Of a stretch of 64,000 bases of DNA, positions 15,301-37,936 are shown one piece after another. The DNA lies in the NCBI GenBank assembly GCA_044892525.1, contig CM097887.1, forward strand, positions 80,826,397 through 80,890,396, given 5' to 3'. The notes beneath the pieces are model-generated. The model did no database searches. It was not told the DNA's origin and saw nothing but the letters and a program-made list of their open reading frames with translations. The position numbers and the translations under genes are program-made. Source of the DNA: Schmidtea polychroa (lineage: Eukaryota). The first letter of the stretch is position 1. Every line of letters starts with the position of its first letter.

Positions 15301-16103
15301 GTCTGCCAACCCTTCGAAACCTAAACGTCGCCAATTATCCAGAGCGGAGCGTAAGAAGCGTCAACGCGAACGAGCAATCGTCAAACAACGAGAACTATCT
15401 TCCAACCACCCAAGTACTTCGAATGACCCCCCCGTAACGATCGATCTAACCGTAGGGATCCCAGGGCGAATAATATCTGCCGCTGGCGTGACTTGGGAGG
15501 AGAATGCCTCCGAGGTTTTTGATCTAGATGAACTATTGGCGGATGCAGAATGGGAGAAGTGAGAATCGCAACACAATACAACCGTGCAGAGTGTTAATGG
15601 ACAAATAAACTATCATGACTCCTTTTCCTCTTAATCCATTTTCCACTAAGTGTACTCGTTATATAGTGCCATAATTATATAGTGTATTATGATAATAGAA
15701 TAGAGAAATTTGTGGGTTATTTCTTGTTGTTGTTTTGATTTAAATAGTTGTTGTAAAGGTTTAGAGTAGTGTTCACAAAGTGATCCATAAAGCGAGAGTA
15801 AATTTTGAGTCCGAGAGGCAATAGTCAATTTTGTGTCAAATTATGGGACAGGGTAGAGAGAGAATCTGATGAGGTAAACAGACGTAAGTCCTTCCATCGG
15901 CAGTCAGCAAGGGAAGTCGAGGCCTCAGTAAGGAGTAGGGGCACATTTCCAACGTGAAGCAATTCGCGGGTGCTATGTTGGAGAGTAAGTTGTGCGGGGT
16001 CCTGCTCCGGGTTGACACGGGCGTATGTAGCGTGATGATATGGGCACGCATCCCCTAGACAAAGATGTAGATTGAGCAGAGTCAACCGAGCGCTACCCCA
16101 GCA
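12355..16103 (+). repeat. 5' LTR (3,749 bp)
   Basis: Direct repeat of 38828-42618. By eye I counted 7 substitutions and 3 indels (11, 32 and 1 nt). AATAAA at 15604. Confidence 0.97.
14734..15562 (+). CDS. LTR-encoded ORF (~258 aa if a 52-nt intron 14758-14809 is spliced); putative nuclear regulatory protein
   Basis: 253-codon open frame intact in both LTRs. The upstream ATG joins in phase 0 through GTAGAA...CTGAT..polypyrimidine..CAG. Contains CxxC plus coiled coil, a basic KRRQ..RKKRQRER tract and an acidic-aromatic C-terminus. Confidence 0.65.
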
Positions 16104-16129: not shown

Positions 16130-16393
16130 AATATGGAATTTCTGTCGAATAATGTGAATTCACCGGGATTATCGATTTCAATTAGTGGGCGAATGCAAAT
16201 TGACTAATGCCTATCGAATCTTATTATAAATCACGATTAGAAAATAATAGAATTAAAGATATAAATAAAGTAAATAATAGGGAAATAGGATAAAAATAAA
16301 ATAAATTATAACGATTTAAAAAGAAAAATGTTTGATGAAACAACCATTAATTAGCTGTATATTATTAAAATTTTTTTTCTTTTCTCAATAGAC

Positions 16394-16879
16394 ATGACGG
16401 AATTCGCAGAACAGATGCAACAATTAATTAATTTCATTAATATAGAAAACGACCCTATTAAAACACTCATACAAAAAAGAAAGCGAATCAACAGCATTCT
16501 ACTCCAAGCAATCGGACACACACCAGTCGTACCTAATCACGTGTTATTGGCCGCAGGTTTAAGCCACTCAGATGAAAAGATAAATCACGAAACAGTATAT
16601 CAATGGTACCTAAAACGACTAAAAAACCCGGCCCTAAATCTAGAATACGAGCGACTAAAAGATCAACTACATACAATATCAGAGGCAATCGAACAAAAGA
16701 TACAAGAGAAACTCACCAAATTGCGAACCTGTCTGTCTTGCAATCTTCGCCCTATACGCATACTATTCTTACCTTGTGGACACCTCAGTCATTGTGAAGA
16801 ATGAGTGAAAGATCTGAAACGATGTACAATATGTAAAAATGGGATAAAAGAATCCCATATGGTTTATTACGGTGATTAA
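16394..16879 (+). pseudogene. IAP-type C-terminal RING E3 ligase ORF without BIR; premature TGA at a Zn-ligand Cys codon
   Basis: CLSC..ILFLPCGHLSHCEE*VKDLKRCTICKNGIKESHMVYY continues in frame past the stop and aligns with the cIAP/XIAP pattern CxxC..FxPCGHxxxCxxC..CPIC. Confidence 0.85.
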
Positions 16880-17435: not shown

Positions 17436-17962
17436 TAAAGCCGAGCTGTTAAGTAGTCCAGCCGGTCAAGGAAAATGAAAACTGAGCTGTGAAAAGTCCA
17501 GCCAGTTCGGAGATATTAAGATCGAGTTGTTGAATAGTCCAACCGATCAGAAGGAAGAAGATTGAGCTGTTGAATAGTGCCAGCCAGTCGTAAGATCGAG
17601 TTGTTGAATAGTCCAACCGATCAGAAGGAAGAAGATTGAGCTGTTGAATAGTGCCAGCCAGTCGTAAGATCGAGTTGTTGAATAGTCCAACCGATCAGAA
17701 GAAAGAAGATTGAGCTGTTGAATAGTGCCAGCCAGTCGTAAGATCGAGTTGTTGAATAGTCCAACCGATCAGAAGGAAGAAGATTGAGCTGTTGAATAGT
17801 GCCAGCCAGTCGTAAGATCGAGTTGTTGAATAGTCCAACCGATCAGCAGGAAGAAGATTGAGCTGTTGAATAGTGCCAGCCAGTCGTAAGATCGAGTTGT
17901 TGAATAGTCCAACCGGTCAGAAGGAAGAAGATTGAGCTGTTGAATAGTGCCAGCCAGTCGTA
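17436..17962 (+). repeat. Tandem array of six 74-bp higher-order units plus degenerate leading subunits
   Basis: ATCGAG recurs at 17521, 17595, 17669, 17743, 17817 and 17891. Each unit holds two GAGYTGTTGAATAGT subrepeats. Confidence 0.95.
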
Positions 17963-19326
17963 AAGGCCTAGAAAAGCGAGAAATAGCAGTTAAGCTGCAA
18001 TGAGATAATATTTAAATTAATAGCGAAATGGAATATTAAAGCTAGCTAGAAACAAATTGAATGTAATTACGAAATTTGAGTTTAGAGAGGAAATAAACGA
18101 GCTCGTGGAAAAGATGATGGATTATAGTGAAAAAGGGAGGGGAAAAAGGAAATGAATTAAAGAGATAATGGATAATAAAGAATAGGTGAAATGATGATAA
18201 TGAGTAGAAGAGGAAAGTAACTAACTAATTAAAGGGATCCCAGTGAAGTAGAGAAACTCTACGGAATATTTTTTTTGGTTAAACCGGGAAAATGCATTTT
18301 TATTGGTTCCAGAGTAGAACCGAGTGGGATAATAGTAAATATGAAAAGTAAAATAGCGGCAACAGCGCAAAAGGAATAAGAAAACGAAGGGGGGTAATAA
18401 GCAGAGACCGACAACGACCTATTTATACTATAATTGATAAAGATAGATAATTATTTTGACTTTATAGATAATTGTTACTACCCCATATAGATAATTTAAA
18501 ATCGACGAAAAATACGGGCTGATGGGAAATTATAACCCGCGGAAAAGAGTTCACAAAAGATAGGGAAAAACAAACAGAAACCTAAAAGGTGTCTGTGTTT
18601 GAATGTTGCAGAAAGAATGATGAAGTCGTGTAAGCAGATGCAACACGAGATCATTTTTTCATTTTAGATATCAAACCAAGCCAGCCAATCAAGCCAATCC
18701 AGAACCTGCACAAAAGGAATTCGAGGAAATCGACAATCGACCAAGAATAAATCCATTCAGAACCCGCACCGAGAAACACAGCAACCGGAAGACTCCAGAA
18801 CGGAAGAAGATACAGATAGCGACATCTCCAACTTCGAACGAATCACCGATATATTCAACCTCATAGTATTAGCAGCCATCTGTCAAGGACTAGTAAATCT
18901 CCTCAGAATCGCAGTAGCAGACTCATACCGAACAATTTACGAAGGAAACTTCATCAGAACCCAATCCACCCAATTCAGTAGCCGCTAATTACAAGGAAGC
19001 GTAAGAAAAGAATCACGGATAAACCTCATCTCAGATCATCAAGTAAGTCAGGCGACGTATTATTTTCAGGAGACGAATTACAACAACTCAAAAGAGGACG
19101 ATCTATTAAACATCAAAGAGGAATATCACAAGGAGCAAGAAGAACCAATCAAGTACCCATATTTGACCAAGAAAATCTCGGATACACCCCTAGTCGATCT
19201 CGAAGCAGAGAAAGTCTGTCCGATATCACTAATAGTTTAGCAACGTCAACCGAAGAATTATCAGCCCAAAGTTTAGTCACATCGTTAGACAATTTAAAAG
19301 AAACAGACGAATCTAGAACACCAATC

Positions 19327-20841
19327 ATGACGAATGTCGTAAAAACCGACGAGTATAAAGAGAAGTTTAGAGGAGAACCGTTCAATGGAAATGCAAACAA
19401 GTTAGCAACGTTTATAACTAATTTTGAAGTTTATATCACGGTGTGTGGATGGACACCCGAAGCAATTAGCAAAAGGATGCCGTTGTTTTTGTGCGATAGC
19501 GCATTAGAAGTATATTTAGAAGCTAAAGAGAGAGATACGAAATTAGAGAAGTGGGAAGATATCAAAACATTCTTGAAGAAAACCTTCGGAGCCAGTAAGC
19601 CAATCAACCAGGCGTTGGGCGAACTAGCAAATAGGAAACAAAGAGCAAACGAATCGATAACATTATATGCCAGTGAATTACGGAGATTAGCGAAGAAAGC
19701 AATGAATGGAAAATTACCCGAGGAAAATCTGATCGGCTATTTCATAGAGGGATTACGCCGAGAAGAGGTAAGAGCCTCAGTAGGCTGTCAAATGTGCAAA
19801 ACGTTAGAGGAAGCCATAGACTGGGCTACAAGATGCGAGCTCCACCTTCCAGTTCAAATGAATATTATGCAAGAGGATGGGAGGATAGCGACAGCAATAG
19901 CGAAAGCAGATACCGGAGATAACAACAATCAGGAACCGAAAATGAACCAATTTATACCAGGAGCGCATCAAATTTTCAAACCACCACAAGGACGATCAAA
20001 TGGGAAAAATGGTAATCGTAACAACCTGAATAACGAGAACAACTTTAATAATCGACGAAGTTTGAACGATAACAAGCAATGCCGAACATGCGGTAAACCA
20101 GGACACTGGGACAGAGATTGTTATAGAAATGCAAATTGTAATCGTTGCGGACGGCGTGGACATACGGAAAATATATGCCAATTGAGAGGTTGTTTTAACT
20201 GTGGTCAGCCAGGTCACATCTCCAGAGACTGCCGAGAAAGGGGCCAACAACAACGACCGCCACAGCGAAATACTAATTATGTATCGAATCCGCAACGACA
20301 AAGTAACCCTGGTGAAAGAAAACAAATGAACGTTATGCAGGAAATCTCACAAATGAAACAGATGATGCAACAAATGATGAGACCAAGACAAGAACCAGCA
20401 CCACATCAAACCCAGAATATACGTATGATGAGGAGTACCGAAAATCTCAACAGTTATGAAGTACATCAACATGTACAAGAATGGCAAAGACTACAGGCCG
20501 AGGAAGAGAGGATAAAACAAGAACGCAACCAACAACGACAAGAACAACCATTGCGAATAAATATGATGAAGTTAGTAAAAGACATGAAAAGCCAGTACTG
20601 TTACAATTACGGGAAAAACCCAAGGGTAGTACCCATGACTGAACCAGAAAAGGTAAAAGAAACAACAACGGAAATGAAAACAGGGAATTCAACCACGATC
20701 TTAAAAGGGAACCAGAGAATTCAGAAAATATTCTGGAAAAAGATAAAAGATAAAATAGAAAAGAAACATGAAGAAACGGAAATAAGAATAAAAGAGGAAA
20801 ACAACCAAAACAAGGAGCAAATCAGTCAGCTAAACCACTAA
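19327..20841 (+). CDS. gag: Gag: capsid domain plus three CCHC zinc knuckles
   Basis: Retrotransposon gag-like N-terminus (PFNG..FITNFE..W..MPLFL..ALEVY). Knuckles CRTCGKPGHWDRDC, CNRCGRRGHTENIC and CFNCGQPGHISRDC. Confidence 0.95.
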   Translation: MTNVVKTDEYKEKFRGEPFNGNANKLATFITNFEVYITVCGWTPEAISKRMPLFLCDSALEVYLEAKERDTKLEKWEDIKTFLKKTFGASKPINQALGELANRKQRANESITLYASELRRLAKKAMNGKLPEENLIGYFIEGLRREEVRASVGCQMCKTLEEAIDWATRCELHLPVQMNIMQEDGRIATAIAKADTGDNNNQEPKMNQFIPGAHQIFKPPQGRSNGKNGNRNNLNNENNFNNRRSLNDNKQCRTCGKPGHWDRDCYRNANCNRCGRRGHTENICQLRGCFNCGQPGHISRDCRERGQQQRPPQRNTNYVSNPQRQSNPGERKQMNVMQEISQMKQMMQQMMRPRQEPAPHQTQNIRMMRSTENLNSYEVHQHVQEWQRLQAEEERIKQERNQQRQEQPLRINMMKLVKDMKSQYCYNYGKNPRVVPMTEPEKVKETTTEMKTGNSTTILKGNQRIQKIFWKKIKDKIEKKHEETEIRIKEENNQNKEQISQLNH

Positions 20842-22107
20842 ATGCTACAAGAATTGGAATCAGAAGAAACAACGATATTTGAAAGAAGGAAACTAAAGCG
20901 AGTACCACGGATGAGGAATCTGCGAATCAACATGATGAAAAGGACAGAAGATGCGACATTGTCAGACGAAGAGGAAGACTATGTGAGTAGTTTGGGTGGA
21001 GAAATACTACAGCTAAACGAAACTAGCGAACCTCCAAAGGGGGAAATCAAAGAGGAAGAAAGCGAAAGCGAGATAACCAGTGAAAGTGAAGACGAGGATA
21101 TCGAATTAAAGTTGAGGAAAGTGAGGGAGGAAGCGATAAAACAAGTAGCTGAAATACTCCCGGTGGTAGTGAGAAACCAAGAGTTCATCGATGTAATACC
21201 ATTCAGGCGATTCGTACAAAAAGTGATGAAATTGGAAAGAAACGAGAAAGATTTAATACCAAGCGAAGAAAAGTTGATAATAAAAAAGTATATGGAAAAA
21301 ATGAAGCAGGTCGATACCACTCGATATGTAATAAAAATCGGAACGAGTAAAGGACTTGAAAGGATATGGATTAAAAACACAGTCACCGACGAACTTTTCG
21401 ATTGGATACGAGAGCACTTAGGTAGCTCGAGGAAAAAGGAGTACCTATACCAATATCAAGGAGAGCAAGTTAAACCAGATATGCACTTAGTAGACGCACT
21501 GATCTGGCCAGGAGAAACGCAAATACTAAAGTTGCACAAAGAAAAACAACCAGCCAATCTTTACGATTGGGCTAAAGATGCCAAGGCAGAATATGATTTC
21601 AATATCAAATTGAAATTAGAACAAATAAAACAATGTACTCTGAGACGAAACCTGGACAAGCTGATCAAGCAAATTCAAGAACAAGTAGAAGACAACTGGG
21701 ATTTACTCATTACCGGACGAGCCCCAGCCATATACGAACTAATGAGCCGATTGCGAGATACAGAATTGCTCCGAATGAGTGATTGGAGAACCATAAATTT
21801 GATTCACAAATATGGAAGGTTAAAAGAAACCCAGCCACAGAAGTTAGAAATAACCATATGGTTACCGAACGAAGAGAAACGACGAATAAAAATGAGCAAT
21901 CAGAGTACAGTGGATGATTTGGTATCAAAGATAAACCAAGAGATAACGGAAAAGGTACGTAGCGAAAGTAGTGATGGTATGGTAGATGATGTAGTCATGA
22001 TGTACGATAAAATAATATTACGAGCGGAGGACGACACCTCGTTGAGCGAAATGGGTATGTGGGACGATCATCAGATAATCAGGATAGTACCAATGGATGA
22101 ATTTTGA
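20842..22107 (+). CDS. In-frame continuation of gag after a single TAA; two predicted ubiquitin/SUMO-like beta-grasp domains
   Basis: RYVIKIGTSKG..YLYQYQGEQVKPDMHLVDALIWPGETQILKL (21322-21540) and LEITIWLPNEEKRRIKMSNQSTVDDLVSKI..MMYDKIILR..TSLSEMGMWDDHQIIRIV (21838-22090). Confidence 0.6.
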   Translation: MLQELESEETTIFERRKLKRVPRMRNLRINMMKRTEDATLSDEEEDYVSSLGGEILQLNETSEPPKGEIKEEESESEITSESEDEDIELKLRKVREEAIKQVAEILPVVVRNQEFIDVIPFRRFVQKVMKLERNEKDLIPSEEKLIIKKYMEKMKQVDTTRYVIKIGTSKGLERIWIKNTVTDELFDWIREHLGSSRKKEYLYQYQGEQVKPDMHLVDALIWPGETQILKLHKEKQPANLYDWAKDAKAEYDFNIKLKLEQIKQCTLRRNLDKLIKQIQEQVEDNWDLLITGRAPAIYELMSRLRDTELLRMSDWRTINLIHKYGRLKETQPQKLEITIWLPNEEKRRIKMSNQSTVDDLVSKINQEITEKVRSESSDGMVDDVVMMYDKIILRAEDDTSLSEMGMWDDHQIIRIVPMDEF

Positions 22108-22146
22108 ACAAGAGACGTAACGTATCAAAAAGAAATACGAGACCGG

Positions 22147-23523
22147 ATGAAAACGTTATATCAAAAATCTACAGAAATAATTGAAATTCACCAACAATGG
22201 TTAAAAGAAAAGGAACTACAAGGAAAAATCACGAAACTAAGTACCAGATCCTGCAGACGAACCCCATGGGAAAGAGAGTGGAATACAGAAAATAAGGAAT
22301 GGGAAATCCGGAAAGGAATCTTCGTAGAAACAGACATTGGTGAGACAGAAAGTGAATCGGAGGAAGGAGAAGAGGAACCTCCAGAATATGAAGAGGAAGC
22401 AAGGGGACAGACATCAGATGACGAGAGCGAGACGGATGTCACATCGGAAAGCGAAAATGAAGCGAGACATATTCATGCAATGAGGAAAAAGGAACGTGAA
22501 TATGCCGATATGGACGGCGAGGAAGCGATAGAAGCAAGAGAACGAGAAGAGAAGGAAAGATATAAACAGTTAGGCGATATCTTAGCAATGGGAGCGAAAA
22601 ATCAAAAACGCCAAGTAATAGCATTGGCTAACATCATCCTAAAGACATCAGAGAATATCCACAATCTGAGAGAAATGGCGAAAACAATAGAGGAATACCG
22701 GAATATAATGAATGGTATCCAGAACAGCTAGAACAAATTACTCGAAAATGGAGAAATCAGGAATGAGCACAAGACACCCAGGAGAGGTATCACATCCGAA
22801 TCAAGTATCCGGACAAGAGCATCGAAGAACTAGAGGTGCATCCAACAACAAAGGTTAGAGAATTAAAAAAAGAAATTAGCATATGAAACTCCATTCCATC
22901 TGCAACTATTCGGAAAATCACTAGACGATAATGCAGACGTCGGAATAACACCCATGAGATTGGAAGAGACGAATGTGTTAACAATGGCGGAAACGTTGGG
23001 AAAACCGTTGAAAAGGAAAAGCAAAAATAATAAACCAACTAAAGGCAGTTTGAGTACTCCAAGTCCGAACAAAGCACCAAGTAAATCTAATGAAACCGAA
23101 GAAGTTGAAGAGATAATCCTGGAAGATAGCGACGATGAACCAGGAGAAAGATCACCGCTATTAGTGAGATGGCCGACAGGAGCCGAAATGTGGACTAACA
23201 ACCAACCATCAACAAGTTATCAACAACCAACAAAATTGAACATCGAAGAAATCATCGACAATACTACGGAAACCGAAACGGATGAACAATTCAAGAAGCA
23301 AAGAGAACCAACAAGAATAACACCAGAAGGGCAAACTGATAAAATAATAGATGAATGGAATGAGTGGCTGAGAAATAACGATAGCTCATTACCCAGAACG
23401 AATAACGAAAGAAATCCGAATTACGAAAATACCAGAGAAGCCGGAGCGATGATGGAAAACGGGCAAAAGGAAGACCTAAGAAACAAGGAGAAAAGTCTGA
23501 GTTCAAAACCAAGGAACAATTAA
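22147..23523 (+). pseudogene. Disrupted polyprotein segment: acidic region, a third ubiquitin-like domain (22785-22985, frameshifted in an A7 run) and a low-complexity linker
   Basis: 22147 is in frame with the previous ORF. Removing one A at ~22870 gives YHIRIKYPDKSIEELEVHPTTKVRELKKKLAYETPFHLQLFGKSLDDNADVGITPMRLEETNVLTM, which is ubiquitin-like. Confidence 0.6.
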
Positions 23524-23546
23524 AGCAAGAACAAGGGGAAGTTCGA

Positions 23547-26500
23547 TTGGAAAAGTTAGATAAAATAGTATGGGATCTAAAAGAAGCTCAACCAACGATC
23601 GAAAGAGGAGAAAAATGGATACGAGAATTGATCAAAGATATGTTAATAATAACAAACCCACAACTTAGACGTTTGTGGCAACGGAAAGTAGCGAGTGTGG
23701 AAGCTAGACAATTATGGCACATCGTATCAAGGATAATCCCAAAGTTAATCAAAGAGAAAACGAAAACCACCAAAACGGATTGGGATGAAACAAAGAGAGT
23801 GATTGAACAGCTCACGACAAATGCAAATGATGACGAACATCATCTAGTGGTAATCACTTATTTGATGTATAATTTGATGGGATTAGCTGCAAGGAAAATA
23901 CCTAATAAACAGTTCGCAAATCACGTAGAAATGACAGTGTCAGTCATAGAAAACACTATTGAACCACATATTATCCGTGCCGGAGGATGGAAAAGACTTA
24001 TACAAGCGCCACGAAAAAACGAACAGGAAAGGTCAATGCAAGTTAGATTGAAGAAGTTGCTGAACGAGCTTGAATGGGAATTACCAATGAAAGATCCAGC
24101 CAGTAGAAAAGCGTCAATAAATTCGTTAATGATGACTATGATGATATGGATGTTGTGCACAAGTGGGGCAACGAGTTTTACCATCTACGATTGTGATAAT
24201 ATGATAATGAGAGATAAATACTCATTGAGAGATATAGAAGAATGCAGACAAGCATCACCCAACAAATTGGACATAGTAAAAACAAAAGTTACCTACCATG
24301 TATATCAAGAATCAGATTTCATCAGAACGCAAGCAAGAGAATGCGTTGTATCAAAAAAGGTACTCGCGTATTATTGCGGGCAATATTCGTATTCAACTCT
24401 CATACTACCCGGTCTAGATAAAGAAATCGTATCAATACAAAGAGAGGACTGTAAAGAGCTATTTAGAACCGGAGCGCTAAAAATGCATAACGGAGTGACG
24501 ATACACGGACAAACCGGAATGATAAAAACCGAAAGTGTTTATGTATCCGGAAAGGTGAAATCATCAGATGGGTCATGTAACGGAGGTACGTATACAATCC
24601 GAGGGGAGGTAATATCGGGAGTAGTAGTGATCGAGTCCTATACGGTTGAATTAAAAGAATACGAAGCGCAATTTGACGCAAATAATTACCAAATGAAAAC
24701 CAACCCGGCATGTAGGGCTACAGAAAACGTATGCAAGACAGGAGTATCAACTATAATCTATGAAGCTAACACGCAAAAATGCCGACTCCAATTGTTAAAA
24801 AGTGCTTTGTTTAATGAAGTAAAAGGGGAAATTTATGAGAACGAAAATGACGAGGATGGAAACGAAAGAGTGAGAATGCGAAATGGAAAACCAATGCCAC
24901 CATCTCCCAGAGAAAAAAGACTCTCAACGCAGAAAACACCAACAACACTAATCACCGACGATCCAGATCTAGGTATGAGATTTATCAAAGAGAAAGAAAC
25001 CACCAAATGCGACAGTATAGTATATAAAACCAATTACGCGGGTATCTATATGTCGAGACAAATAATCGATAGAGCAGTGGGAAAGATAGCAACGGAGGAC
25101 GTAAAACTATACTTATATGCAAATAATAAAATGGACTTTCTGTTTCATCGCGGACAGACGACGTTGCAAAAAGTATATTACGATCTTATACAAAACGATT
25201 GTTCGTTGAATAAAGAAATACTGAAAACAAAGCTGGCTATTGCGATAACGCACCCAGATAACACGATGCCATCACTCCCATTACCTGATGGACATTTTGG
25301 TAGAATGGTGGGAGAAGTGATGTACACATACCAGTGTACCAAGACGTATGCACGAATGCCCGAAAAATCCTCACTACCCGAAAAGAAATGTGCAAACGAA
25401 TTAGAGATTCGTTATAAAGGACAAAATCGATTCGTCCAACCAGTCACCAGAATTACGAACCCAGTAGGCTTCTACCCAAATCTATTTAACTGTTCTAATG
25501 CGTACGGACCATTGTATGAAAGACCCGATGGGAAATGGATAATGTTACCAGTAAAAACCATAACAGAGGAGCCCAAGAAATTTGGATTAATAGAACTCGC
25601 CACGGAACAAGTCTTCAAACCCATTGACGTATCAAACGGGGGTATGTATGCCCCAGAAGATTTAGAAATAGCTCGGCTTAACGTATTATTCCCCGCAAGG
25701 CGAGAATCTATATTGTCAAACATGGTCACAATAACTGGGGGAACGAATTACCAATCAGGCCCAAACTATGAACTACTGCTGTCACCAGACCATTTCCAAC
25801 AAGCAACCTCAAATATGATGAAAGCAATGTGGGGAAGATTCTTAGTTTTTGGACAAATGATGGCCGGAATATTGGGGATCATACTCATAATTCAGATAGT
25901 CAGAGTAATACTAACACAAATGTTAGCTTGTTTTGATATATACAAGAGAGAAAAGAAAGTAAATTGGAAAATGATAGTAGGATTTCTACCATTCCTAGCT
26001 AAAACCATGGTTTTACATGGTCACTCAAAAGACATTCATCGGATTAAGCGATTGATCAAAATACTAACAAAGATTAAAGGAACCGACGAGGAAGTAGGCA
26101 GACGATTCCGGAAAGTAATGTACGATGAAGCAACAAGACGACAACTGAAAAAGAATAAGCCAAAATTTTTGGACCGATTCAGAAGTCAATCATCTAACAG
26201 CGATAGTGACGACGATGATAACGGGAACGATAAATGTCTATATCCAAACAGAAACCCAAACGAAAAACCAATGGAAACAGCACCATATTGGGAAAAGGAA
26301 AAGACAAACACCTGGATCGCCAATGGAAGCTATATACCACCGGATATCGTGGGACCACAAGCAGCTTTGACCATGACACAAAATATGTATCCGCAATTAC
26401 CGAGTCAACCCGGTATGCATTATATGCCAACGCGACGTACCAAAAGCGTAGATCAAGCAGATGACGTACGAACAATAGCAGCAATGAATTCACCTGGAGG

Positions 26501-26993
26501 TCCAGCAGTGACAGTCATGATTCAAATCAATGGTAAAGAAACCAATGCTATGATAGACACAGGAGCTAATGTATCAGCGATAGCGATTAATCAAATTCCC
26601 AGTAAGCACTGGAAAGATATCGAATCAACCACAATCCACATCATAGCATGTAGTAAAGAAACAGTGGACGTGGTCGGAAGATGGTGGACTACATTGAGAT
26701 ACCAGGACAACGAAATTGAAACGTATTTGGCAGTAATACCAAAACTTAGCGTACCATGCATAATCGGAACGGATTTGATCCCAGAATTATTAAAAGAAGT
26801 GGTAATTGACTTAACAACCATGTGCCTAAAAGACAGAACAGGCAGAATATGCAAAATGAATGCCATAATCAGATGTCCAGAGAAAATTGTAGTACCAGCA
26901 AAATCGCAGATGATTTGTCAAATAAAAGTGGATACGGGTATGGAAGGAGAAGTTATCTTTGAGCCAAGCAAATCATTCGAAAAGCGACGATAG
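23547..26993 (+). CDS. env: Polyprotein segment: Bcl-2-like domain, internal signal peptide, chuvirus/gB-type envelope glycoprotein with TM, then aspartic protease
   Basis: BH2-like IEPHIIRAGGWKRL; hydrophobic LMMTMMIWMLCTSGATS; FTIYDC..YSLRDIEEC..C..YYCG Cys pattern; TM FLVFGQMMAGILGIILIIQIV; protease MIDTGANVSAI..CIIGTD. Confidence 0.8.
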   Translation: MEKLDKIVWDLKEAQPTIERGEKWIRELIKDMLIITNPQLRRLWQRKVASVEARQLWHIVSRIIPKLIKEKTKTTKTDWDETKRVIEQLTTNANDDEHHLVVITYLMYNLMGLAARKIPNKQFANHVEMTVSVIENTIEPHIIRAGGWKRLIQAPRKNEQERSMQVRLKKLLNELEWELPMKDPASRKASINSLMMTMMIWMLCTSGATSFTIYDCDNMIMRDKYSLRDIEECRQASPNKLDIVKTKVTYHVYQESDFIRTQARECVVSKKVLAYYCGQYSYSTLILPGLDKEIVSIQREDCKELFRTGALKMHNGVTIHGQTGMIKTESVYVSGKVKSSDGSCNGGTYTIRGEVISGVVVIESYTVELKEYEAQFDANNYQMKTNPACRATENVCKTGVSTIIYEANTQKCRLQLLKSALFNEVKGEIYENENDEDGNERVRMRNGKPMPPSPREKRLSTQKTPTTLITDDPDLGMRFIKEKETTKCDSIVYKTNYAGIYMSRQIIDRAVGKIATEDVKLYLYANNKMDFLFHRGQTTLQKVYYDLIQNDCSLNKEILKTKLAIAITHPDNTMPSLPLPDGHFGRMVGEVMYTYQCTKTYARMPEKSSLPEKKCANELEIRYKGQNRFVQPVTRITNPVGFYPNLFNCSNAYGPLYERPDGKWIMLPVKTITEEPKKFGLIELATEQVFKPIDVSNGGMYAPEDLEIARLNVLFPARRESILSNMVTITGGTNYQSGPNYELLLSPDHFQQATSNMMKAMWGRFLVFGQMMAGILGIILIIQIVRVILTQMLACFDIYKREKKVNWKMIVGFLPFLAKTMVLHGHSKDIHRIKRLIKILTKIKGTDEEVGRRFRKVMYDEATRRQLKKNKPKFLDRFRSQSSNSDSDDDDNGNDKCLYPNRNPNEKPMETAPYWEKEKTNTWIANGSYIPPDIVGPQAALTMTQNMYPQLPSQPGMHYMPTRRTKSVDQADDVRTIAAMNSPGGPAVTVMIQINGKETNAMIDTGANVSAIAINQIPSKHWKDIESTTIHIIACSKETVDVVGRWWTTLRYQDNEIETYLAVIPKLSVPCIIGTDLIPELLKEVVIDLTTMCLKDRTGRICKMNAIIRCPEKIVVPAKSQMICQIKVDTGMEGEVIFEPSKSFEKRR

Positions 26994-29900
26994 TTACCCC
27001 TCGCCAGAGAAATAATAACAATAAACCCAGAAGGAGTGATACCGATCAACATCACAAATTTTGAAGAGGAAGACAAAATCATCTACGAAAATGAAAGATT
27101 GGGAAAATTAACTCCAATGATCAATATCGAATTACCAAAAGTGACCAACGAGATGACCAAAGACGACGAATTATGGACAATCGACAGTACATTGTTAACG
27201 GATGCTGAAAGGAGAAAATTGCACCGATTATTAGTAGAATATAAAGATATATTCGCCATCTCAGATTTAGATTTGGGTACATGCGATCAGTGCTCGAAGT
27301 GGAACAAATTATGTGCCGGGATAGGCATGCTGTGGCACCCGGGATTCCAGGCTTTTATGCAGAAATTTTCAGTTGGGGGTGTTGCAAAACTTTGGGGGGT
27401 GTCCAACAATTTGGGGGGGGGGGTGTCCACTCATTTAATCATAAGTTTCAGGGGGTGTACCTGTTTTAATGTGGGGGGTGTCAAACAATTTTGGGGGGTG
27501 GGTAAATCCCTGCGGGATTCTCATTTTTAACCAAGCAAAATGACAGAGATTTTTTGCATGTGTAAATTTGTCTGATAAATAATCGGGGTCACAGTATAAA
27601 TAACTCAACAAACAACTTGCTGGTTTAACTAAAATAAATAAGAGAATATACCTACCTATCCATTACTGCTGCTTGGGAAATTCTTAATTGAATAGAGAAT
27701 AGAGAATAAAGAATATATATATACATACATATATGGATGTACTATGTGTGACCTTAATTGCAGTATTTGTGTGCCTATAAAATGAAATAAGTACCGGGAA
27801 ATATGAAATGAAGTGCCGGGATGCAATTCCGCCTACATAATCAATGCCGGGATAATATCCCGGCTATCCCGCCTCACTTCGAGCACTGCATGCGATGTTA
27901 CCCTACATGCAATACCACTCATAGACGAAACCCCAATTGCATTGAGACCATACAAGCTAGCAGAAATGCAAAAAGAAATAGCCGAAGCAGAAGTACAAAA
28001 AATGTTAGACGCAAAAGTGATCGAACCAAGTTGCTCACCTTGGCAATTCCCAGTGGTCATGGTGAAAAAGAAAGATGGCACCCAACGATTCTGTATCGAT
28101 TATCGAAAGTTAAACGCAGTAACCAAGAGAGATACCTATCCATTGCCGGACATCAATGAAATGTTACTCATGTTGCAAGGGGCAGCATATTTTACTTCTT
28201 TAGATTTAAAAAGTGGATACTGGCAGATTAAAGTCAAAGATGAGGACAAAGAGAAAACAGCTTTCACGTTGGGACGAGATCTATATCAGTTCAGAAAAAT
28301 GCCATTCGGACTGACCAACGCACCAGCATCATTTCAAAGGTGTATGAACTTTGTCACTCATGGAATCAAACAATGTATGGTATATATTGATGATTTGTTA
28401 ATCTATTCAGCGACATTCGAACAACATCTGGAGGATATCCGAAATGTATTTATTCGATTAAGACAATGGAAACTCAAGCTCAAACCCTCAAAATGCGATT
28501 GGGCAAAGGAAAAAGTCACGTTTTTGGGACACATAGTGTCAGCTAAAGGAAAGGAGCCAGATCCAAGAAACATTGAGAAAATAAAAACATGTCCAGCACC
28601 GAAAACTGTCACCCAAGTTCAGGAATTTCTAGGATTATGCGGATACTATCGCAAATTTATCAAAGATTATGCAGGAATTGCAAAACCAATCCAGGAATTA
28701 GTAAAGAAGGATATTTCGTTCATTTGGGGGAAGGAACAACAAGAGGCGTTTGAAACGCTGAGAGACAAACTAATCGAAGCACCTATCCTCGTACACCCAG
28801 ATTTCAAGAAGCCATTTCTATTGGCAACGGATGCAAGCGGGTACGCGGCAGGCGCGATTCTGGGACAATTAGACGATGAAGGAAAAGAGAGAGTAATCGG
28901 GTATTACAGTCGAACATTCAAAAAGCACGAGAAGAACTATTCGGTAACAGAACGAGAAGCATTGGCTATAATACAAGCTATCAAACACTTCCGATATTTA
29001 CTATGGGGACATGAGATATGTATAACCACAGATCACCAACCATTAATGTGGTTAGGGCAACATAAAGAAGCGTCCAGTAGACTGATGAGATGGGCCATGC
29101 AATTGCAAGAATACTCCCCATTTTTAAAATTCAAAGCGGGAAGAGCAAATGCCAACGCCGATTGTATGTCAAGATTTATTTTTCCAGATTTGGTGGATTC
29201 AGAAATGCAACGCATATGCTTAATAGTAGCGGAAGATTTAGATTTCTGTCAATTGCGAAAGGACCAACAAGAGGACGCAGAATTAAAACAAATTATCGAT
29301 TATGTAAAAACCGGAAAGACGGAGGTATATGCGAAAGATCAAAAATTAAAAGAACATATGGATAAACACCGACACCGATATATTATAGAGAAAGATTGGT
29401 TGCTGATAATGGATGGGGAAAAACGATTAATGTGTATACCGGAAAACCGACGAAAAGAGTTACTAACGCAATATCACGATGGGAGATTGGGAGGACATAT
29501 GTCATCAAAAAAAGACGTTAGCAAGAATGAAACAGAAATATTTTTGGCCAACCCTAACGGAAGACGTAACCGAATGGGTGAAAAACTGCCTAACCTGTGC
29601 AACAAGGAAAAACGCTGGATCGAAATGGAAAGCACCTTTGACGCCAATGCCGGTACCAATAGAGCCGATGACAATGATATCAATGGACATAGTTGGTTAT
29701 TACCGGAATCGGATCGAGGAAACGTTTATATTTTAGTGATTACAGACTTTCTCACGAAATTTCCAGAAGCATTCGCGATGCCAGACCAAAAAGCTAAAAC
29801 AATCGCAAAAATCTTAGTCGAAGAGATATGTTGCCGTTACGGGACACCGAAGCAAATCTTGACTGATCAAGGAACTAATTTCATGAGTGAGATAATGAGC

Positions 29901-30236
29901 GAAGTAACAAACTATTTCAAAATCGCAAAACTAAGAACATCTCCATATCACCCTCAAACCAATGGGATGACGGAAAGATTTAATGGAACACTTATACAAA
30001 TGTTATCAAACTACGTCGATCGTCACCAACGAGATTGGGATGAATACATAAATCTATGTCTTATGGCTTACAGAATGTCAATTCATGCATCAACGAAAAT
30101 GAGCCCATTTAAATTAATGTACGGGAGAGAGTGCAACTTGCCAATGGACCTGGAATACCAACCACCGATATCGCAATACATGGAGATAGATGATTATGTT
30201 TCGAAATTCAAAGAAAGAATGCAGGAGATTTGGTAA
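26994..30236 (+). pseudogene. pol: pol (RT, RNase H, integrase core), in frame with the protease across a TAG; disrupted by a MITE and two compensating frameshifts
   Basis: RFCIDYRKLN, LDLKSGYWQI, MPFGLTNAP, YIDD; TDASG, EREALA, TDHQPL; integrase TDQGTNF, YHPQTNGMTERFN. MITE removal gives DLGTCDVTLHAIPL in frame. The zinc-finger CxxC sits in the alternative frame (29479-29736). Confidence 0.97.
27288..27888. mobile_element. 601-bp hAT-type MITE inserted in pol
   Basis: Perfect 14-bp TIR CAGTGCTCGAAGTG. 8-bp TSD CATGCGAT (27280-27287, 27889-27896). Subterminal GCCGGGAT repeats. Confidence 0.95.
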
Positions 30237-33200
30237 ACTGCGGGATTAAATATCAAGTTCTACCAAGAAAGTTATAAAGATTTACACGATCGAAAGAAAA
30301 ACGTGAAGCAACATACGTTTCAAACAGGCGATTGGGTGATGATCGAGACCCCAGAATTAATTCCCGGAACCACAAGAAAGTTACAACGGAACGGAAAAGG
30401 GCCATATGAGATCGTGTTCGTAGGCGAAACCAATGTAAGAGTGAAATTGGTAAATAATCCATTCACCAGGCCAATATACGTAAACGTGGCACGATGCAAA
30501 TCAATTCCAAAAACAGCCACCAGTCAACCAGAAGGCCGTACATTAACCACACGTTCGCAAACCTACAGAATGAACATGATGCAACAACTCGCAGAACCTA
30601 TCACTGGACGATTGGGCATACAACCATCGGAAGCTGAAAAAATCGTACGAGAGGTAAAGATAAAATTACCCGGATGGGCAAAAGATCGATTAGATTTCGA
30701 AATATTAGGAGGATTATTGACGATGATCGAAAACTATGCAAACAGAGAGAGGACACATCCGTTATTGCGAGTAGTTAAAAGTCAATGGCCAATATTATTT
30801 ACAATAACAGATCATTATGGAGACACACCATTACACAAACTCATGAAAGTAGGTAACAACGAGCAAATACTAGAAACAATAGAAGCATTTCACGACTGCA
30901 AGCGATCAACAGAACAAGAAAACAACCAAGGCTACACACCATTAATGATAGCAGCAAACAGAGGCAAAATAAAAGACATTATAACCGCATTACTTGATAC
31001 TGGATCAAAAATAACTACACAAGATCACGAGCGGAAAAACGCACTACATCATGCTATCGAAGGGAAAAGTACCGAGGCGTTCACGTCGTTGATGGAACTA
31101 CTATCATATGAGGACAATCAAGAAGTCGGAAACATGTATGATGGATTATTAACAGCGATCAAAGAGAAACTGACAACAATTACCGGAGTATTAATCACTT
31201 GGAGAAACCCAATTAAAAATAATTATATGATCAACGTAAACGAAGCATTCACGAGAGGAGAGAACACGCTTATGAGAGAAGCTATGAAAGGACATCATTT
31301 ATTCGAAATCCCGAATCAATTACTAGAACGAGGAATAACATTCACAAATCATAAGGATGAGCAGTTATTAAAAAAGCGAATTGACACATTCGAAAAATCA
31401 ATATTCCAATTCATTACTCAGGTACGAAATAAATATTGGGAAACGGTAAGTGTGTTATACATGATGGACACGATGAACAACATCCGCGAGAATTACCTAG
31501 ATATTATTCAAATACTTACCGCAGAGGAACGAATCAATAATCCAACCGGAAAGAAAATGAAAATAAGGCATGGGAAATCAAGAGAACCAAAGTCGCAAAC
31601 GAACCAAACGATCGCAAATAAAGTCATCGAAACAAATTCAATGAGTGTAGATCAAAGAGCAATAATATGCAAAGCGAAAGAAGTGTTCTTTGAGGAAATG
31701 CTAGAGCTCTCAGATGAAATAATAAAAACCGTGCATACATATGCAAGAGATCAAACAACGAATTTGGACATCGGTAAAATCAAAACCTTCTTGCCCCCAG
31801 CATTTACGATGGTAACGAAGGATTCCAGAACACCACTACAACAGGCAATATTAGCAGCGAAAGAAAATAGAGCAATAACGATCATGAGAATCCTTAGGGA
31901 TATGGGCGAGGAAACCAACACGAAAAATGAACAAGGCGAAACCGCCATGATGTATGCAGCTATAACGAAAATACACCCAAAAACACTCCACATACTACAT
32001 CAATCAGGATCGAGACTAGACGAAAAGTCAAACGAAGGGAACTCCACTATGGACTGGGCAACCATACAGCCTAATTTAGAAATGATCAGATTTATTTGCA
32101 AAAATGCGACAAGAGAAGAAGTTGAAAATATATGCAAAAACACAGCTCAATTTCAATGGAATACGGTACGGAAAAATCTAGAAGCAATGAAATTATTATT
32201 AACATGGAGAGTACCACAAAATAATAAATATGCGATAAATGTAAACGAATTCTACGAAAACGGAGAAAACGCGATGGTAAAGAATACATTAACTAAAGGG
32301 GGGACACCAAAAATTATTTTAATAGTACTAAACAGAGAAGACCTCAAATTCACGCAAAATCAGAACGAGCAACAACGAATTGGGAAACATCGTCGTATTC
32401 AAATGAGAGAATTAGTCAAAGAATGGAATAGAAAGAGACATGCTGCGACGGGTAGAAAAGAGTTTGAATTCGAAGCAAAGTTAGCAAGGAACAGAGTGTT
32501 AACAGCATATCGCAGATTATTGAACGATATAAATGTCGAGGACGACATTTTAAACGACAGCGGGGGAGATAAACACGATGACAATGACGGAAAAGGCCGA
32601 AAAGAGGATAAAGGGAAAAGAGAACCGGAAGAGGATAAACCGGAAAACAAGGATTCGGGTACGAGAAGAGAGGGAAACAGCCCGGGAACCAAGACCAAAG
32701 AGGAGGAAAAACCGAATAATGGAAAACAGAGGGTATGCCTACCTTTCACTAACAAAGAAATAGAAACAAATATGATCTTAATGATAATCATGCTAACCAT
32801 GATAGAGTTAGTAACAGCTCATGGAGGGACGAGAACGATAAAAGAAACCAAAGAAGCGGAGAATCAAGATAGCAAAGAGGAAGAACTAAAACAAGAAAAG
32901 AAAAAGCAAGCACAAGAGCAGCAGTGGGATTTAAAGGAAGAATGGGGCCTAAAGGAAAGGTGCATACTAGGAAGATGTATGTCTAGAGCGTATCAGAGAT
33001 TAGTACTGATAAATGAGGACACAGAACCGATAACAGAAGTAAGAATACAAGAAGCATACCGAAATCGAGACGGCAAGAGAATAACGAACGTTAAAGGAAA
33101 AGAGGTGCACCTAGGAAAAGGAGGTGAAGTAGTAATAACGCAGCTCCAACCAAGAAAAGAACACAAAGTCTGTATTTCAAGATTAGGACCAGGTGAGAGA

Positions 33201-33773
33201 TGCCATCAATATGTTACGCAGCAGCAGCCCCCGAAAGAATACACGGTTTGTATCTGGAGGAACGAATCAAAAAGGGAATGCCGACGATACCCGGGGAAAA
33301 GAGGAAAGAAAAGAAAAAACCACGACGAAAAGGACGAAGGAGGAAAGCACAAGAAAACCGGCGAGGAAGCTCAGGACAACTATGTTTCGGAGGAAGAGAT
33401 GGAAAAAATACAAAAGATGGCAAAGGAGGGTATGAACGAGGAAATAACAAGAATACGAGAGAGGATGAAAGGAAATGGCAAAAGAGGAAACGAGAAAAGT
33501 ACAGAAGCGATATCAACATTAACAAACAAGGAAAAACCAGAGAGTATAAGCGTGAAGCAGATGATGTGGATCAGCGGGATAATAATAACAGGGGCATTCC
33601 TAATCATAACGGGGGGAACAATAAAAATAATTAAATATAAACGACATCGCGGAGAACTAGAGATGACCCGAATCAGAAATTTCCAACATCGAGTGAAACG
33701 ACCAAGTGATATCAAACAAGAACAGTGGGTGGAGGCCTGGAACGCTCAGCGCCCTCCAAACTCACGTATATAG
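30237..33773 (+). CDS. Integrase C-terminus (GPY motif) fused to two ankyrin-repeat blocks and a predicted type I membrane protein
   Basis: In frame with pol across a TAA. GDWV..KGPYEI; ANK motifs GDTPLH, GYTPLMIAA, KNALHHA, GETAMMYAA; hydrophobic MILMIIMLTMIELVTA; TM WISGIIITGAFLIITGG. Confidence 0.85.
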   Translation, partial: TAGLNIKFYQESYKDLHDRKKNVKQHTFQTGDWVMIETPELIPGTTRKLQRNGKGPYEIVFVGETNVRVKLVNNPFTRPIYVNVARCKSIPKTATSQPEGRTLTTRSQTYRMNMMQQLAEPITGRLGIQPSEAEKIVREVKIKLPGWAKDRLDFEILGGLLTMIENYANRERTHPLLRVVKSQWPILFTITDHYGDTPLHKLMKVGNNEQILETIEAFHDCKRSTEQENNQGYTPLMIAANRGKIKDIITALLDTGSKITTQDHERKNALHHAIEGKSTEAFTSLMELLSYEDNQEVGNMYDGLLTAIKEKLTTITGVLITWRNPIKNNYMINVNEAFTRGENTLMREAMKGHHLFEIPNQLLERGITFTNHKDEQLLKKRIDTFEKSIFQFITQVRNKYWETVSVLYMMDTMNNIRENYLDIIQILTAEERINNPTGKKMKIRHGKSREPKSQTNQTIANKVIETNSMSVDQRAIICKAKEVFFEEMLELSDEIIKTVHTYARDQTTNLDIGKIKTFLPPAFTMVTKDSRTPLQQAILAAKENRAITIMRILRDMGEETNTKNEQGETAMMYAAITKIHPKTLHILHQSGSRLDEKSNEGNSTMDWATIQPNLEMIRFICKNATREEVENICKNTAQFQWNTVRKNLEAMKLLLTWRVPQNNKYAINVNEFYENGENAMVKNTLTKGGTPKIILIVLNREDLKFTQNQNEQQRIGKHRRIQMRELVKEWNRKRHAATGRKEFEFEAKLARNRVLTAYRRLLNDINVEDDILNDSGGDKHDDNDGKGRKEDKGKREPEEDKPENKDSGTRREGNSPGTKTKEEEKPNNGKQRVCLPFTNKEIETNMILMIIMLTMIELVTAHGGTRTIKETKEAENQDSKEEELKQEKKKQAQEQQWDLKEEWGLKERCILGRCMSRAYQRLVLINEDTEPITEVRIQEAYRNRDGKRITNVKGKEVHLGKGGEVVITQLQPRKEHKVCISRLGPGERCHQYVTQQQPPKEYTVCIWRNESKRECRRYPGKRGKKRKNHDEKDEGGKHKKTGEEAQDNYVSEEEMEKIQKMAKEGMNEEITRIRERMKGNGKRGNEKSTEAISTLTNKEKPESISVKQMMWISGIIITGAFLIITGGTIKIIKYKRHRGELEMTRIRNFQHRVKRPSDIKQEQWVEAWNAQRPPNSRI

Positions 33774-34293: not shown

Positions 34294-34378
34294 ACCAAAC
34301 CTAGCTTAAAATGTAAATAATTGTAAATAAAATATCGAACCTGTATCGATAAGAACTATATGTATATATAATTATAGA

Positions 34379-35767
34379 ATGGATAAACGACAAAGAGAAG
34401 AGTTCAGAGAGATTGTCGAACAAGTCCGAAAATCTACAACGATCAGAATACACAAACATGTTATGTGCGGAATATGTGAAAAGTTGCTAAAAGAACCCCA
34501 CCAAACCCTATGTGGATGCAGATTATGTAAGGAATGTATCAGTGAAGCAATAAAGAATAGACCACAGTGGTGCCCGGTGTGTAAAGAGACATTAATATCG
34601 AGTTTAGAAGACACTAACGAGGATAAAGCCGCAGTGAAAGACATGTTAAACACCAATCTGGGATGCAAAAATACCCCATGCGAATGGAAAGGAGTAATAT
34701 GGAAAGTAGTGCAACATATGGGAGAATGTATGTACAGAATCGGCCAGTGTGAAAGGTGCCATAAAACCATTCGAGCAAGCGAAGAAAAAGAGCATCAAAG
34801 CCAGTGTGAAGAGAGACTAGAAAGATGTAAACATTGTGGAGAAATAGATACGTGGAAAAATCTCACCAGCAAACATCACAATGTCCAAGAGGAAAAGGTA
34901 TGTGCAGAGTTCAGTGGGGAATGCCCGAACGGATGCGAGGAAGGGAGAATAATAAAAATAGCCCAACACCTAAAGGAATGTGAAAGGAAAAGAATGACAT
35001 GTGTACTCGGTAAATGGGGCTGTCAGAAGCTACTACACCGAGGAGAGTTACCACATCATTTAGTAGAAAATGCTTCAACCCACGCAGAAATGTGGTCGAC
35101 TGCGCTACAAGAAAGTGAAGAGAAAGTAAAACAAATGGAGATAGAGATAACATCGTTGAAAGTGTTAGTCAAAGAACTACTAGAAGAAAGAAAAGCGTTC
35201 GAAGAAGCCCGAGCTAACATAAAGATGCAAATAAATCGTATAGAAATCAGCAATAATCAGGCCAAGGTGCTACATCAAAAGATAACTGAGATAAATCTAA
35301 ATGAAGTAATACCAACAGCACCCTACGTGTGGAAAATAACGGGAGTAAAAGAAAGAATACGAAAAGCCAAAACCGGAGAAGAGACAAAAATAACGAGCCC
35401 CGCATTCCAGTCTTGGAAAAATGGGTACAAAATGAAAATGAAGATATATCCCAACGGGGACGGAACCGGATTAGATACAGACTTTTCGATTTTCTTTCTG
35501 TTATGCAAAGGGGAATACGACGAAATAATAGAATGGCCGTTCCAGGCAAAGATCGATATTGCACTAATGAATGACCGAAGCATCCACGAACAAAGCTTCA
35601 AGACAACGGGAAACCAAATGTGTTACCAGAGACCTACGGAAGAAGAAGGATCAGCAACGGGAGCGCCTACGTTCATCCTACAACAAAAAGTAGAGGATAT
35701 GGCGAGAAATGACACAGTATATATCAAGATGACTGTGAGGAAAGAGGGGAAGGGTAGAACGGAGTAA
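34379..35767 (+). CDS. Intact, intronless TRAF (RING, TRAF zinc fingers, coiled coil, MATH domain)
   Basis: CGIC..CGCRLCKEC..CPVC RING; Cys/His fingers; MATH YVWKI..SPAF..GYKM..IYPNGDG..FSIFF..GEYD..WPF. Confidence 0.95.
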   Translation: MDKRQREEFREIVEQVRKSTTIRIHKHVMCGICEKLLKEPHQTLCGCRLCKECISEAIKNRPQWCPVCKETLISSLEDTNEDKAAVKDMLNTNLGCKNTPCEWKGVIWKVVQHMGECMYRIGQCERCHKTIRASEEKEHQSQCEERLERCKHCGEIDTWKNLTSKHHNVQEEKVCAEFSGECPNGCEEGRIIKIAQHLKECERKRMTCVLGKWGCQKLLHRGELPHHLVENASTHAEMWSTALQESEEKVKQMEIEITSLKVLVKELLEERKAFEEARANIKMQINRIEISNNQAKVLHQKITEINLNEVIPTAPYVWKITGVKERIRKAKTGEETKITSPAFQSWKNGYKMKMKIYPNGDGTGLDTDFSIFFLLCKGEYDEIIEWPFQAKIDIALMNDRSIHEQSFKTTGNQMCYQRPTEEEGSATGAPTFILQQKVEDMARNDTVYIKMTVRKEGKGRTE

Positions 35768-37898: not shown

Positions 37899-37936
37899 AC
37901 ACCACTAAGACCAATTGTAAATATAATGAATAATAA

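What the first reader, a model, noticed from the sequence alone, without database searches (positions are those of the whole stretch)
23600..24010. Divergent Bcl-2-like domain directly upstream of the env signal peptide
Seen: helical domain ending IEPHIIRAGGWKRL (BH2 consensus WIxxxGGWxxF), preceded by a BH1-position helix-turn-hydrophobic helix lacking NWGR. The following hydrophobic signal segment could double as its membrane anchor. Established: viral Bcl-2 folds are often this divergent and either block apoptosis or inhibit NF-kB (poxvirus A46/B14 class). Inference: a retroelement vBcl-2.
Basis: partly seen in the sequence, partly recalled or inferred. Interest (0 to 1): 0.75.

Follow-up and report, generated by a model that had tools for sequence, protein, structure and literature searches.

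The report
Bcl-2-like cargo of planarian retroelement
A giant virus-like jumping gene, likely from a planarian flatworm, carries a much-changed copy of the cell-death regulator Bcl-2 just before its envelope protein; this layout is already in print for the Burro elements, and the domain's likely job of keeping the host cell alive is untested.

Summary
Observation confirmed; the feature is real but already noted in print. Window 23600-24010 is one domain in the polyprotein of a 30.3-kb Gypsy-like LTR element (12355-42618) with the order Gag, Ubl, Bcl-2-like, signal segment, Env, PR, RT, IN, ankyrin. Alone it scores weakly (Pfam Bcl-2 E 0.03). Three sister families with only 36-38% identical Env keep the same BH2 motif in the same place and score better (E down to 1e-6). 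A profile of the element domains finds Bcl-xL (E 1.8e-7). dN/dS is 0.05 or less in this family. AlphaFold models were poor (pLDDT 44 and 56), so the fold test is inconclusive. A BCL2-like motif between a Ubi/SUMO-like domain and env is published for planarian Burro elements (PMC6431247), and this scan noted it before on other pieces of the same genome. Added here: the NWGR glycine is Asp/Glu in 13 of 15 aligned rows, so the groove is likely non-canonical. The Env signal would leave the domain ER-anchored if it is cut on its lumenal side; this is inferred, not shown. This copy is broken upstream of the domain.

The parts
12355..16103 (+). 5' LTR (TG...CA), preceded by a 4-bp target-site duplication at 12351-12354
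   Evidence: 7 mismatches in 3,585 aligned bases against the 3' LTR
16355..16804 (+). ORF ending in an IAP-type RING finger, interrupted by a stop in this copy; no BIR domain detected
   Evidence: Pfam zf-C3HC4_3 E 3.3e-5; sequence; 'IAP-type' is my recalled reading
18982..20841 (+). Gag (Retrotrans_gag and CCHC knuckles), start of the polyprotein; ends at a stop in this copy
   Evidence: E 2.5e-10 and 8e-11
21823..22104 (+). Ubiquitin-like (beta-grasp) domain
   Evidence: Pfam PI3K_rbd E 1.2e-4 over 21823-21963; end point approximate
22790..22990 (+). Further ubiquitin-like domain, split by a frame break in this copy
   Evidence: weak Pfam ubiquitin hit (E 0.045) in copy L007; window limits approximate
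23460..23483 (+). AT-hook-like basic motif RAKGRPKK upstream of the Bcl-2-like domain
   Evidence: sequence; (R/K)GRP(K/R) lies 150-169 aa before BH2 in L007, L062, L065, P0003 and P0010, absent in L082 and L084; Pfam AT_hook E about 0.1 in L062 and L065
23607..24002 (+). Bcl-2-like domain: alpha1 about 23607-23645, alpha2 about 23700-23750, alpha4 23778-23813, BH1 position 23820-23864, BH2 23958-23999
   Evidence: alpha4-alpha8 by profile match to Bcl-xL 124-194; alpha1 and alpha2 assigned by inference from helix pattern
24003..24125 (+). Linker, strongly conserved within the family
   Evidence: linker plus signal dN 0.007-0.038 between subfamilies (the linker was part of the retrieval query)
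24126..24176 (+). Internal signal sequence of Env (hydrophobic core 24126-24158; predicted signal-peptidase cut after about 24176); candidate tail anchor
   Evidence: small residues three positions before YDC in all four families; cut site inferred from the (-3,-1) rule, no predictor run
24177..25913 (+). Env fusion glycoprotein (Monjiviricetes/chuvirus-like, gB type) with transmembrane helix 25857-25913
   Evidence: PF24664 E 3.2e-69; hydropathy
26514..26789 (+). Retroviral-type aspartic protease, same frame as the Bcl-2-like domain and Env
   Evidence: RVP E 5e-10
27807..30236 (+). RT, RNase H, integrase
30237..33773 (+). Polyprotein tail with ankyrin repeats
   Evidence: Ank_2 E 8e-20
34331..35767 (+). 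Accessory TRAF-like ORF (RING and MATH)
   Evidence: MATH_2 E 5.7e-25, RING E 4e-4
38828..42618 (+). 3' LTR, followed by the 4-bp target-site duplication at 42619-42622

Best explanation
The stretch is a divergent Bcl-2 homologue inside the Gag-Env-Pol polyprotein of a Burro-type LTR retroelement, and it likely acts as a predicted ER-tethered pro-survival factor that would keep the expressing cell alive. Shown: homology, position, conservation across families, purifying selection. Inferred steps: (1) copies with an open frame translate it as part of the roughly 4,700-codon ORF; (2) the downstream hydrophobic segment works as Env's internal signal, and signal peptidase cuts on the lumenal side, which would leave the cytosolic upstream chain hanging from the ER by a C-terminal helix, the topology of tail-anchored Bcl-2 proteins; (3) the element's protease would cut it from Gag at a recurring [IM][NH][MA][MI]-like site about 500 aa upstream, giving a Ubl, AT-hook-like, Bcl-2-like product; (4) it would bind host death or autophagy regulators through a remodelled groove without the NWGR-Asp salt bridge. 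The window copy itself has stops and frame breaks upstream and probably does not make it.
For: Same slot and BH2 motif in four families whose Env is 36-38% identical. Pfam Bcl-2 E 1.2e-6 to 0.015 in five sister sequences, against 0.033 for the window. Element-domain profiles retrieve Bcl-xL/Bcl-2 as all of the best 60 PDB rows shown (best E 0.0018; 1.8e-7). hhalign against 8 non-retroelement Bcl-2s of the genome: probability 94%, E 1e-7. Leave-out test 48.4 bits versus shuffles up to 15.9. 5 of 10 hits among 1.84 billion proteins show domain, linker, hydrophobic segment, Env; 2 of 10 show Gag and Ubl upstream. dN/dS 0.01-0.05 where dS could be estimated in this family. Protease-like motif recurs near domain borders. 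Companion cargos are RING, TRAF and ankyrin. Burro1's RING-BIR region is reported to protect stem cells from apoptosis (PMC13465017 passage citing a paper I could not read).
Confidence: 0.45

Rival explanations
1. A Bcl-2-fold scaffold that no longer binds BH3 and instead blocks innate-immune or stress signalling adaptors, as poxvirus A46/B14-class proteins do (recalled), working with the element's TRAF and ankyrin cargos.
For: Gly of NWGR is Asp/Glu in 13 of 15 rows and Trp is lost in all; alpha2 has no Gly-Asp BH3 motif; TRAF-like ORF and ankyrin repeats in the same element.
Against: The best sequence matches are cellular Bcl-xL/Bcl-2, with BH2 kept. A46-class proteins are soluble and lack BH motifs (recalled). 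Several poxviral Bcl-2s without recognisable BH motifs still bind Bak, Bax and Bim (PMC11209288 passage).
Confidence: 0.25
2. An assembly module: the Bcl-2-derived domain and the retained signal tether the Gag precursor to the membrane that holds Env, like an anchored capsid or Env leader, with little role in cell death.
For: The domain is fixed in front of the Env signal in all four families and five outside hits. It is as conserved as Env in this family. A basic AT-hook-like motif lies upstream in 5 of 7 sequences long enough to check.
Against: Any hydrophobic signal would tether Gag without a Bcl-2 fold. BH2, a core motif of Bcl-2 proteins, is kept at about 20% overall identity. In other families the domain evolves faster than Env.
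Confidence: 0.2
3. The GGW match is a coincidence in a generic helical linker.
For: Weak direct scores (Pfam E 0.02-0.07; no phmmer hit in PDB at E up to 10); no confident Bcl-2 model.
Against: Motif kept across four families and outside homologues; profile E 1.8e-7 to Bcl-xL; window domain scores 30.9 bits on the sister profile with BH2 masked.
Confidence: 0.03

Closest known systems
Burro / GYPSM1 giant Gypsy-like LTR elements of Schmidtea mediterranea and Dugesia (PMC6431247 section 7, read in full, citing Jurka 2007 and Grohme et al. 2018)
   Same: Over 30 kb with LTRs; one huge ORF (4,873 aa there; 4,732 codons is the recurring open frame here); Gag with CCHC knuckles, Ubi2/SUMO-like, BCL2-like, in-frame env, PR-RT-RH-IN, ankyrin; MATH/TRAF cargo.
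   Different: Here TRAF is a separate ORF downstream of pol, and the RING ORF shows no BIR. I could not compare sequence with Burro1-4, so the family number is open. The review does not discuss the altered BH1 or a signal-anchor.
Smed_errantivirus_5 and _6, GAG-ENV-POL errantiviruses with HSV/gB-type Env (PMC13524379; passages and supplement rows)
   Same: Gene order and Env type. By eye the window Env is closest to Smed_errantivirus_5: 33 of 61 residues identical in the one stretch I counted.
   Different: That paper has no occurrence of 'Bcl' in its main text or 7 supplements. The comparison was by eye, not computed.
Cellular Bcl-xL/Bcl-2 and viral Bcl-2 homologues (KsBcl-2, ORFV125, DPV022)
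   Same: alpha4-alpha8 sequence profile, BH2 motif, C-terminal hydrophobic segment.
   Different: No NWGR (D-D-E-H here), no Gly-Asp BH3, embedded in a polyprotein, and the only candidate anchor is an Env signal; function untested.

Membership tests
Bcl-2 family | Sequence homology over BH1-BH2 (alpha4-alpha8) | tested here: met
   profile E 1.8e-7 to Bcl-xL; hhalign 94%; leave-out test; the window alone is below Pfam's cut-off
Bcl-2 family | BH2 motif (W-I-x-x-x-G-G-W) | tested here: met
   IxxxGGW at 23970-23990, with His in place of the first Trp; I, GGW and L invariant in 29 of 29 rows, which were chosen by this motif
Bcl-2 family | BH1 NWGR signature | tested here: not met
   D-D-E-H in the window; W 0, G 1, R 2 of 15 rows
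Bcl-2 family | BH3 motif with Gly-Asp in alpha2 | tested here: not met
   no Asp at the expected place in the putative alpha2; the helix assignment is inferred
Bcl-2 family | Eight-helix bundle around a central hydrophobic hairpin | tested here: inconclusive
Bcl-2 family | C-terminal membrane anchor | tested here: inconclusive
   hydrophobic segment 20-51 aa after GGW in all four families, but it doubles as the Env signal and is weak in this family
Pro-survival viral Bcl-2 | Binds BH3 peptides and blocks Bax/Bak-type death | not tested
   the complex predictor was not available; needs bench work
Poxvirus A46/B14 class | Bcl-2 fold that binds signalling adaptors and inhibits NF-kB | not testable with these tools
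   features recalled; no A46-class protein among the rows shown
Burro elements | Over 30 kb with long LTRs | tested here: met
   12355-42618, LTRs 3.7-3.8 kb, 4-bp target duplication
Burro elements | Single giant ORF Gag, Ubl, BCL2, env, PR, RT, RH, IN, ankyrin | tested here: met
   domain order; many copies with a 4,732-codon frame among 150 scored of 976 candidates; the window copy is interrupted
Burro elements | MATH/TRAF cargo | tested here: met
   34331-35767
Burro elements | BIR domain (B-IAP) | tested here: inconclusive
   RING found, no BIR hit in the ORFs scanned; only ORFs above the length limits were scanned
Burro elements | Sequence identity to Burro1-4 | not testable with these tools
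   reference sequences and Grohme et al. 2018 not held

The most novel reading that the evidence does not exclude
The Env signal peptide of these elements is dual-use: once cut it stays as the tail anchor of a Ubl/AT-hook/Bcl-2 protein on the ER. The clade-wide swap of the NWGR glycine for an acidic residue marks a lineage of retroelement Bcl-2s, captured once, whose groove was rebuilt for a non-BH3 partner.
Probability: 0.3. Interest if true: 0.6.

Novelty: new member of a known kind. Interest (0 to 1): 0.25.

Why it matters
Bcl-2 homologues are familiar cargo of large DNA viruses, and the Burro elements are a published retroelement case. One Burro anti-apoptotic cargo (B-IAP) is reported to help planarian stem cells survive; whether the Bcl-2-like domain does likewise is untested in the papers I could search (the key 2018 and 2026 papers were not held). 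This window adds a further family and two testable details, the altered BH1 and the signal-anchor topology. It does not add a new kind of system.

Tried and rejected
Single-sequence phmmer against PDB: 0 hits at E up to 10. Two word-seeded protein searches: none of 118 and none of 149 candidates passed. ESM Atlas: no usable hit. Single-sequence AlphaFold pLDDT 44.5, Foldseek best E 0.69. With a 29-row alignment pLDDT 55.9; every Foldseek PDB row shown was Bcl-xL/Bcl-2 but none significant; BFVD top two rows were Bcl-2-like at E 0.68 and 1.1; no Bcl-2 chain among the 50 rows of the wide VIA search, which were mixed helical proteins. Complex prediction with a host Bak-like BH3 peptide was not available: no verdict. 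The env rows came from an out-of-frame query and were discarded; one search repeats them properly. In one search, 4 of 10 'upstream' rows were out of frame and dropped, and four family rows had saturated dS; L100 had no intact anchor and was skipped. P0004 (1 of 10 hits) is an insect allergen repeat and was rejected; P0002, P0008 and P0009 are fragments with no element context. The tree puts 14 element-type rows against 8 others at 93/91, not starred: one capture is allowed, not shown; L024, L069, L085 and P0009 were left out, and the donor lineage is unresolved. Grohme et al. 2018 and the Dev Cell 2026 Burro1 paper could not be read, nor their supplements, which may already treat this domain.

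Full report
Observation. The peptide IEPHIIRAGGWKRL is encoded at 23958-23999 on the + strand, in the stop-to-stop ORF 23406-26993. Upstream lie an amphipathic helix, a turn and a hydrophobic helix without NWGR. Downstream, 45 residues after GGW, a Met-rich hydrophobic core (24126-24158) precedes the start of a Monjiviricetes-type fusion glycoprotein (Pfam E 3e-69) and a retroviral protease in the same frame. IxxxGGW is expected 0.02 times in the element's 7,575 ORF residues and occurs once.

Context. The domain lies in a 30.3-kb LTR element, 12355-42618, with 3.7-3.8 kb LTRs differing at 7 of 3,585 aligned bases and a 4-bp target duplication. Domain order is Gag, ubiquitin-like, Bcl-2-like, Env, PR, RT, RNase H, integrase, ankyrin, with a RING ORF before and a TRAF-like ORF after. 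The genome is 781 Mb; 150 of 976 candidates were scored, all 92-100% identical to the query, many inside a 4,732-codon frame. The window copy has stops at 20839, 22105 and 22729 and frame breaks further on, the last near 23450-23460, so it probably does not express the domain. A planarian host is inferred from the element's likeness to published ones.

Is it Bcl-2? Alone the window domain is weak: Pfam Bcl-2 E 0.02-0.07, no PDB phmmer hit. Searching the genome with Pfam Bcl-2 and with the Env family turned up three sister families, B, C and D. Their Env is 36-38% identical to the window's, and each has a helical domain ending in xIxxxGGW, then a linker, a hydrophobic segment and YDC. They score Pfam Bcl-2 at E 1.8e-6, 1.2e-6, 0.0031, 1.3e-5 and 0.015; none reaches the curated cut-off. 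A profile of 29 element domains returned Bcl-xL/Bcl-2 as all of the best 60 of 126 PDB matches, best E 0.0018. That profile found 10 proteins among 1.84 billion: 7 of 10 have a Pfam Bcl-2 hit at E up to 0.1, 5 of 10 have Env directly behind, 2 of 10 have Gag and Ubl upstream, and 1 is a false positive. With six of them added, the best E to Bcl-xL is 1.8e-7 over alpha4-alpha8; three of the six lack element context. hhalign to 8 other Bcl-2s of the genome gives 94%. With this family's rows removed, the profile of 9 env-linked homologues scores the window domain 48.4 bits, against 15.9 for the best of 2,000 shuffles, and 30.9 with BH2 masked; the columns came from an alignment made with the family present. 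A host-only profile gives 12.6 bits, which vanish when BH2 is masked. So the link to Bcl-2 runs through the sister families.

Selection. Between subfamilies of the window's family the domain is 91-98% identical while synonymous sites are far diverged (dS 0.25 to saturation); dN/dS is 0.01-0.05 in the five of six pairs where dS could be estimated, and dN (0.012-0.057) is similar to Env's (0.009-0.071). These copies were retrieved by likeness to this domain, which biases dN down. In the sister families dN/dS is 0.12-0.37 against 0.04-0.09 for Env: constrained, but less so.

Groove. In the NWGR columns the window reads D-D-E-H. Over 15 rows Trp is never kept, Gly once (Asp/Glu in 13), Arg twice (Lys 7, His 3, Val 3); the rows include near-copies, so they stand for about ten lineages. 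The Gly and Arg matter for BH3 binding, and an altered motif in ORFV125 goes with much weaker Puma binding (PMC9027176, passages); yet some poxviral Bcl-2s without BH motifs bind Bak, Bax and Bim (PMC11209288, passages). Canonical BH3 binding is therefore doubtful, not excluded.

Mechanism. Env needs an internal signal to enter the ER, and the hydrophobic segment followed by small residues three positions before YDC fits one in all four families (rule recalled, no predictor run). A cut on the lumenal side would leave the upstream chain tail-anchored, as Bcl-2 proteins are. The nearest protease-like motif upstream is about 500 residues before BH2, which would give a Ubl, AT-hook-like, Bcl-2-like product. 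Against this, the core is short in this family and a weak protease-like site lies just in front of it. I commit to an ER-tethered pro-survival role (0.45), ahead of a signalling scaffold (0.25) and an assembly tether (0.2). Confidence that the domain is Bcl-2-derived is about 0.9.

What is known. PMC6431247 section 7, read in full, describes Burro elements over 30 kb with a 4,873-aa ORF, a BCL2-like motif noted by Grohme et al. 2018, a Ubi2/SUMO-like motif before it and env between BCL2 and PR, and calls the apoptosis link worth testing. PMC13524379 (passages and supplement rows) lists six Schmidtea GAG-ENV-POL elements with gB-type Env, does not mention Bcl, and by eye its element 5 is nearest to the window's Env. 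PMC13465017 (passages) cites a 2026 study in which Burro1's RING-BIR region protects stem cells. PMC8532177 (passages) shows BURRO1 transcripts rising in smedwi-2 knockdown animals. PMC11410931 (passages) only mentions Burro. The 2018 and 2026 primary papers were not held. Six searches found no functional test of the Bcl-2-like domain. Earlier notes of this scan on the same genome reached the same reading; they are not independent evidence, but two gave me the paper leads.

Verdict. A real, selected, Bcl-2-derived domain in the published position of a known class of element, here in a further family. New member of a known kind; interest 0.25. The open points are the rebuilt groove and the dual-use signal.

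Noticed in passing
L046-L051, L053-L060; L106-L111: Dispersed multicopy Bcl-2 genes (Pfam E 1e-7 for one) sit beside TBP-like, A32-like ATPase and 1,389-aa ORFs; 9.4 kb is 99.9% identical between two chromosomes. Likely Maverick/Polinton-like elements carrying a second, independent Bcl-2; the label is my inference. One such protein groups loosely with host gene L042 (unsupported).
   Followed up: partly
window 27288-27888: 601-bp secondary insertion in the pol region with 14-bp terminal inverted repeats and an 8-bp target duplication, multicopy in the genome: hAT-like miniature element (label recalled).
   Followed up: partly
window 23460-23483: AT-hook-like motif at a similar distance (150-169 aa) before BH2 in this family, family B and two outside proteins, absent in families C and D; role unexplained.
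   Followed up: partly
window 19858-30570: A recurring [IM][NRH][MIVA][MI] motif near domain borders (for example 20557, 20926, 22471, 26856, 27903, 30570) looks like the element's protease site; the pattern was permissive and also hits other places.
   Followed up: partly
window 14762-15562 and 41235-42035: Each LTR carries a 266-codon ORF with no Pfam match.
   Followed up: no
window 35915-38491: Three more accessory ORFs after the TRAF gene: two coiled-coil-like (366 and 256 aa) and a 184-aa ORF with signal-like and membrane-like segments; no convincing Pfam match.
   Followed up: no
window 16111-16128: PBS-like stretch after the 5' LTR resembles a tRNA-Pro primer site (recalled) and shares a 9-base complement with the LTR's first bases; PMC13524379 lists no tRNA for its six Schmidtea elements.
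   Followed up: no
window 17517-17963: Six copies of a 74-bp tandem repeat in the 5' untranslated region.
   Followed up: no
L031-L037 (G000:C4:89.9-90.8 Mb): Cluster of seven near-identical canonical NWGR-type Bcl-2 genes.
   Followed up: no
window 18982-30236: The internal ORF has many stops and frame breaks although the LTRs differ at only 7 of 3,585 bases; the copy may have been broken before it inserted, or the assembly may hold errors.
   Followed up: no
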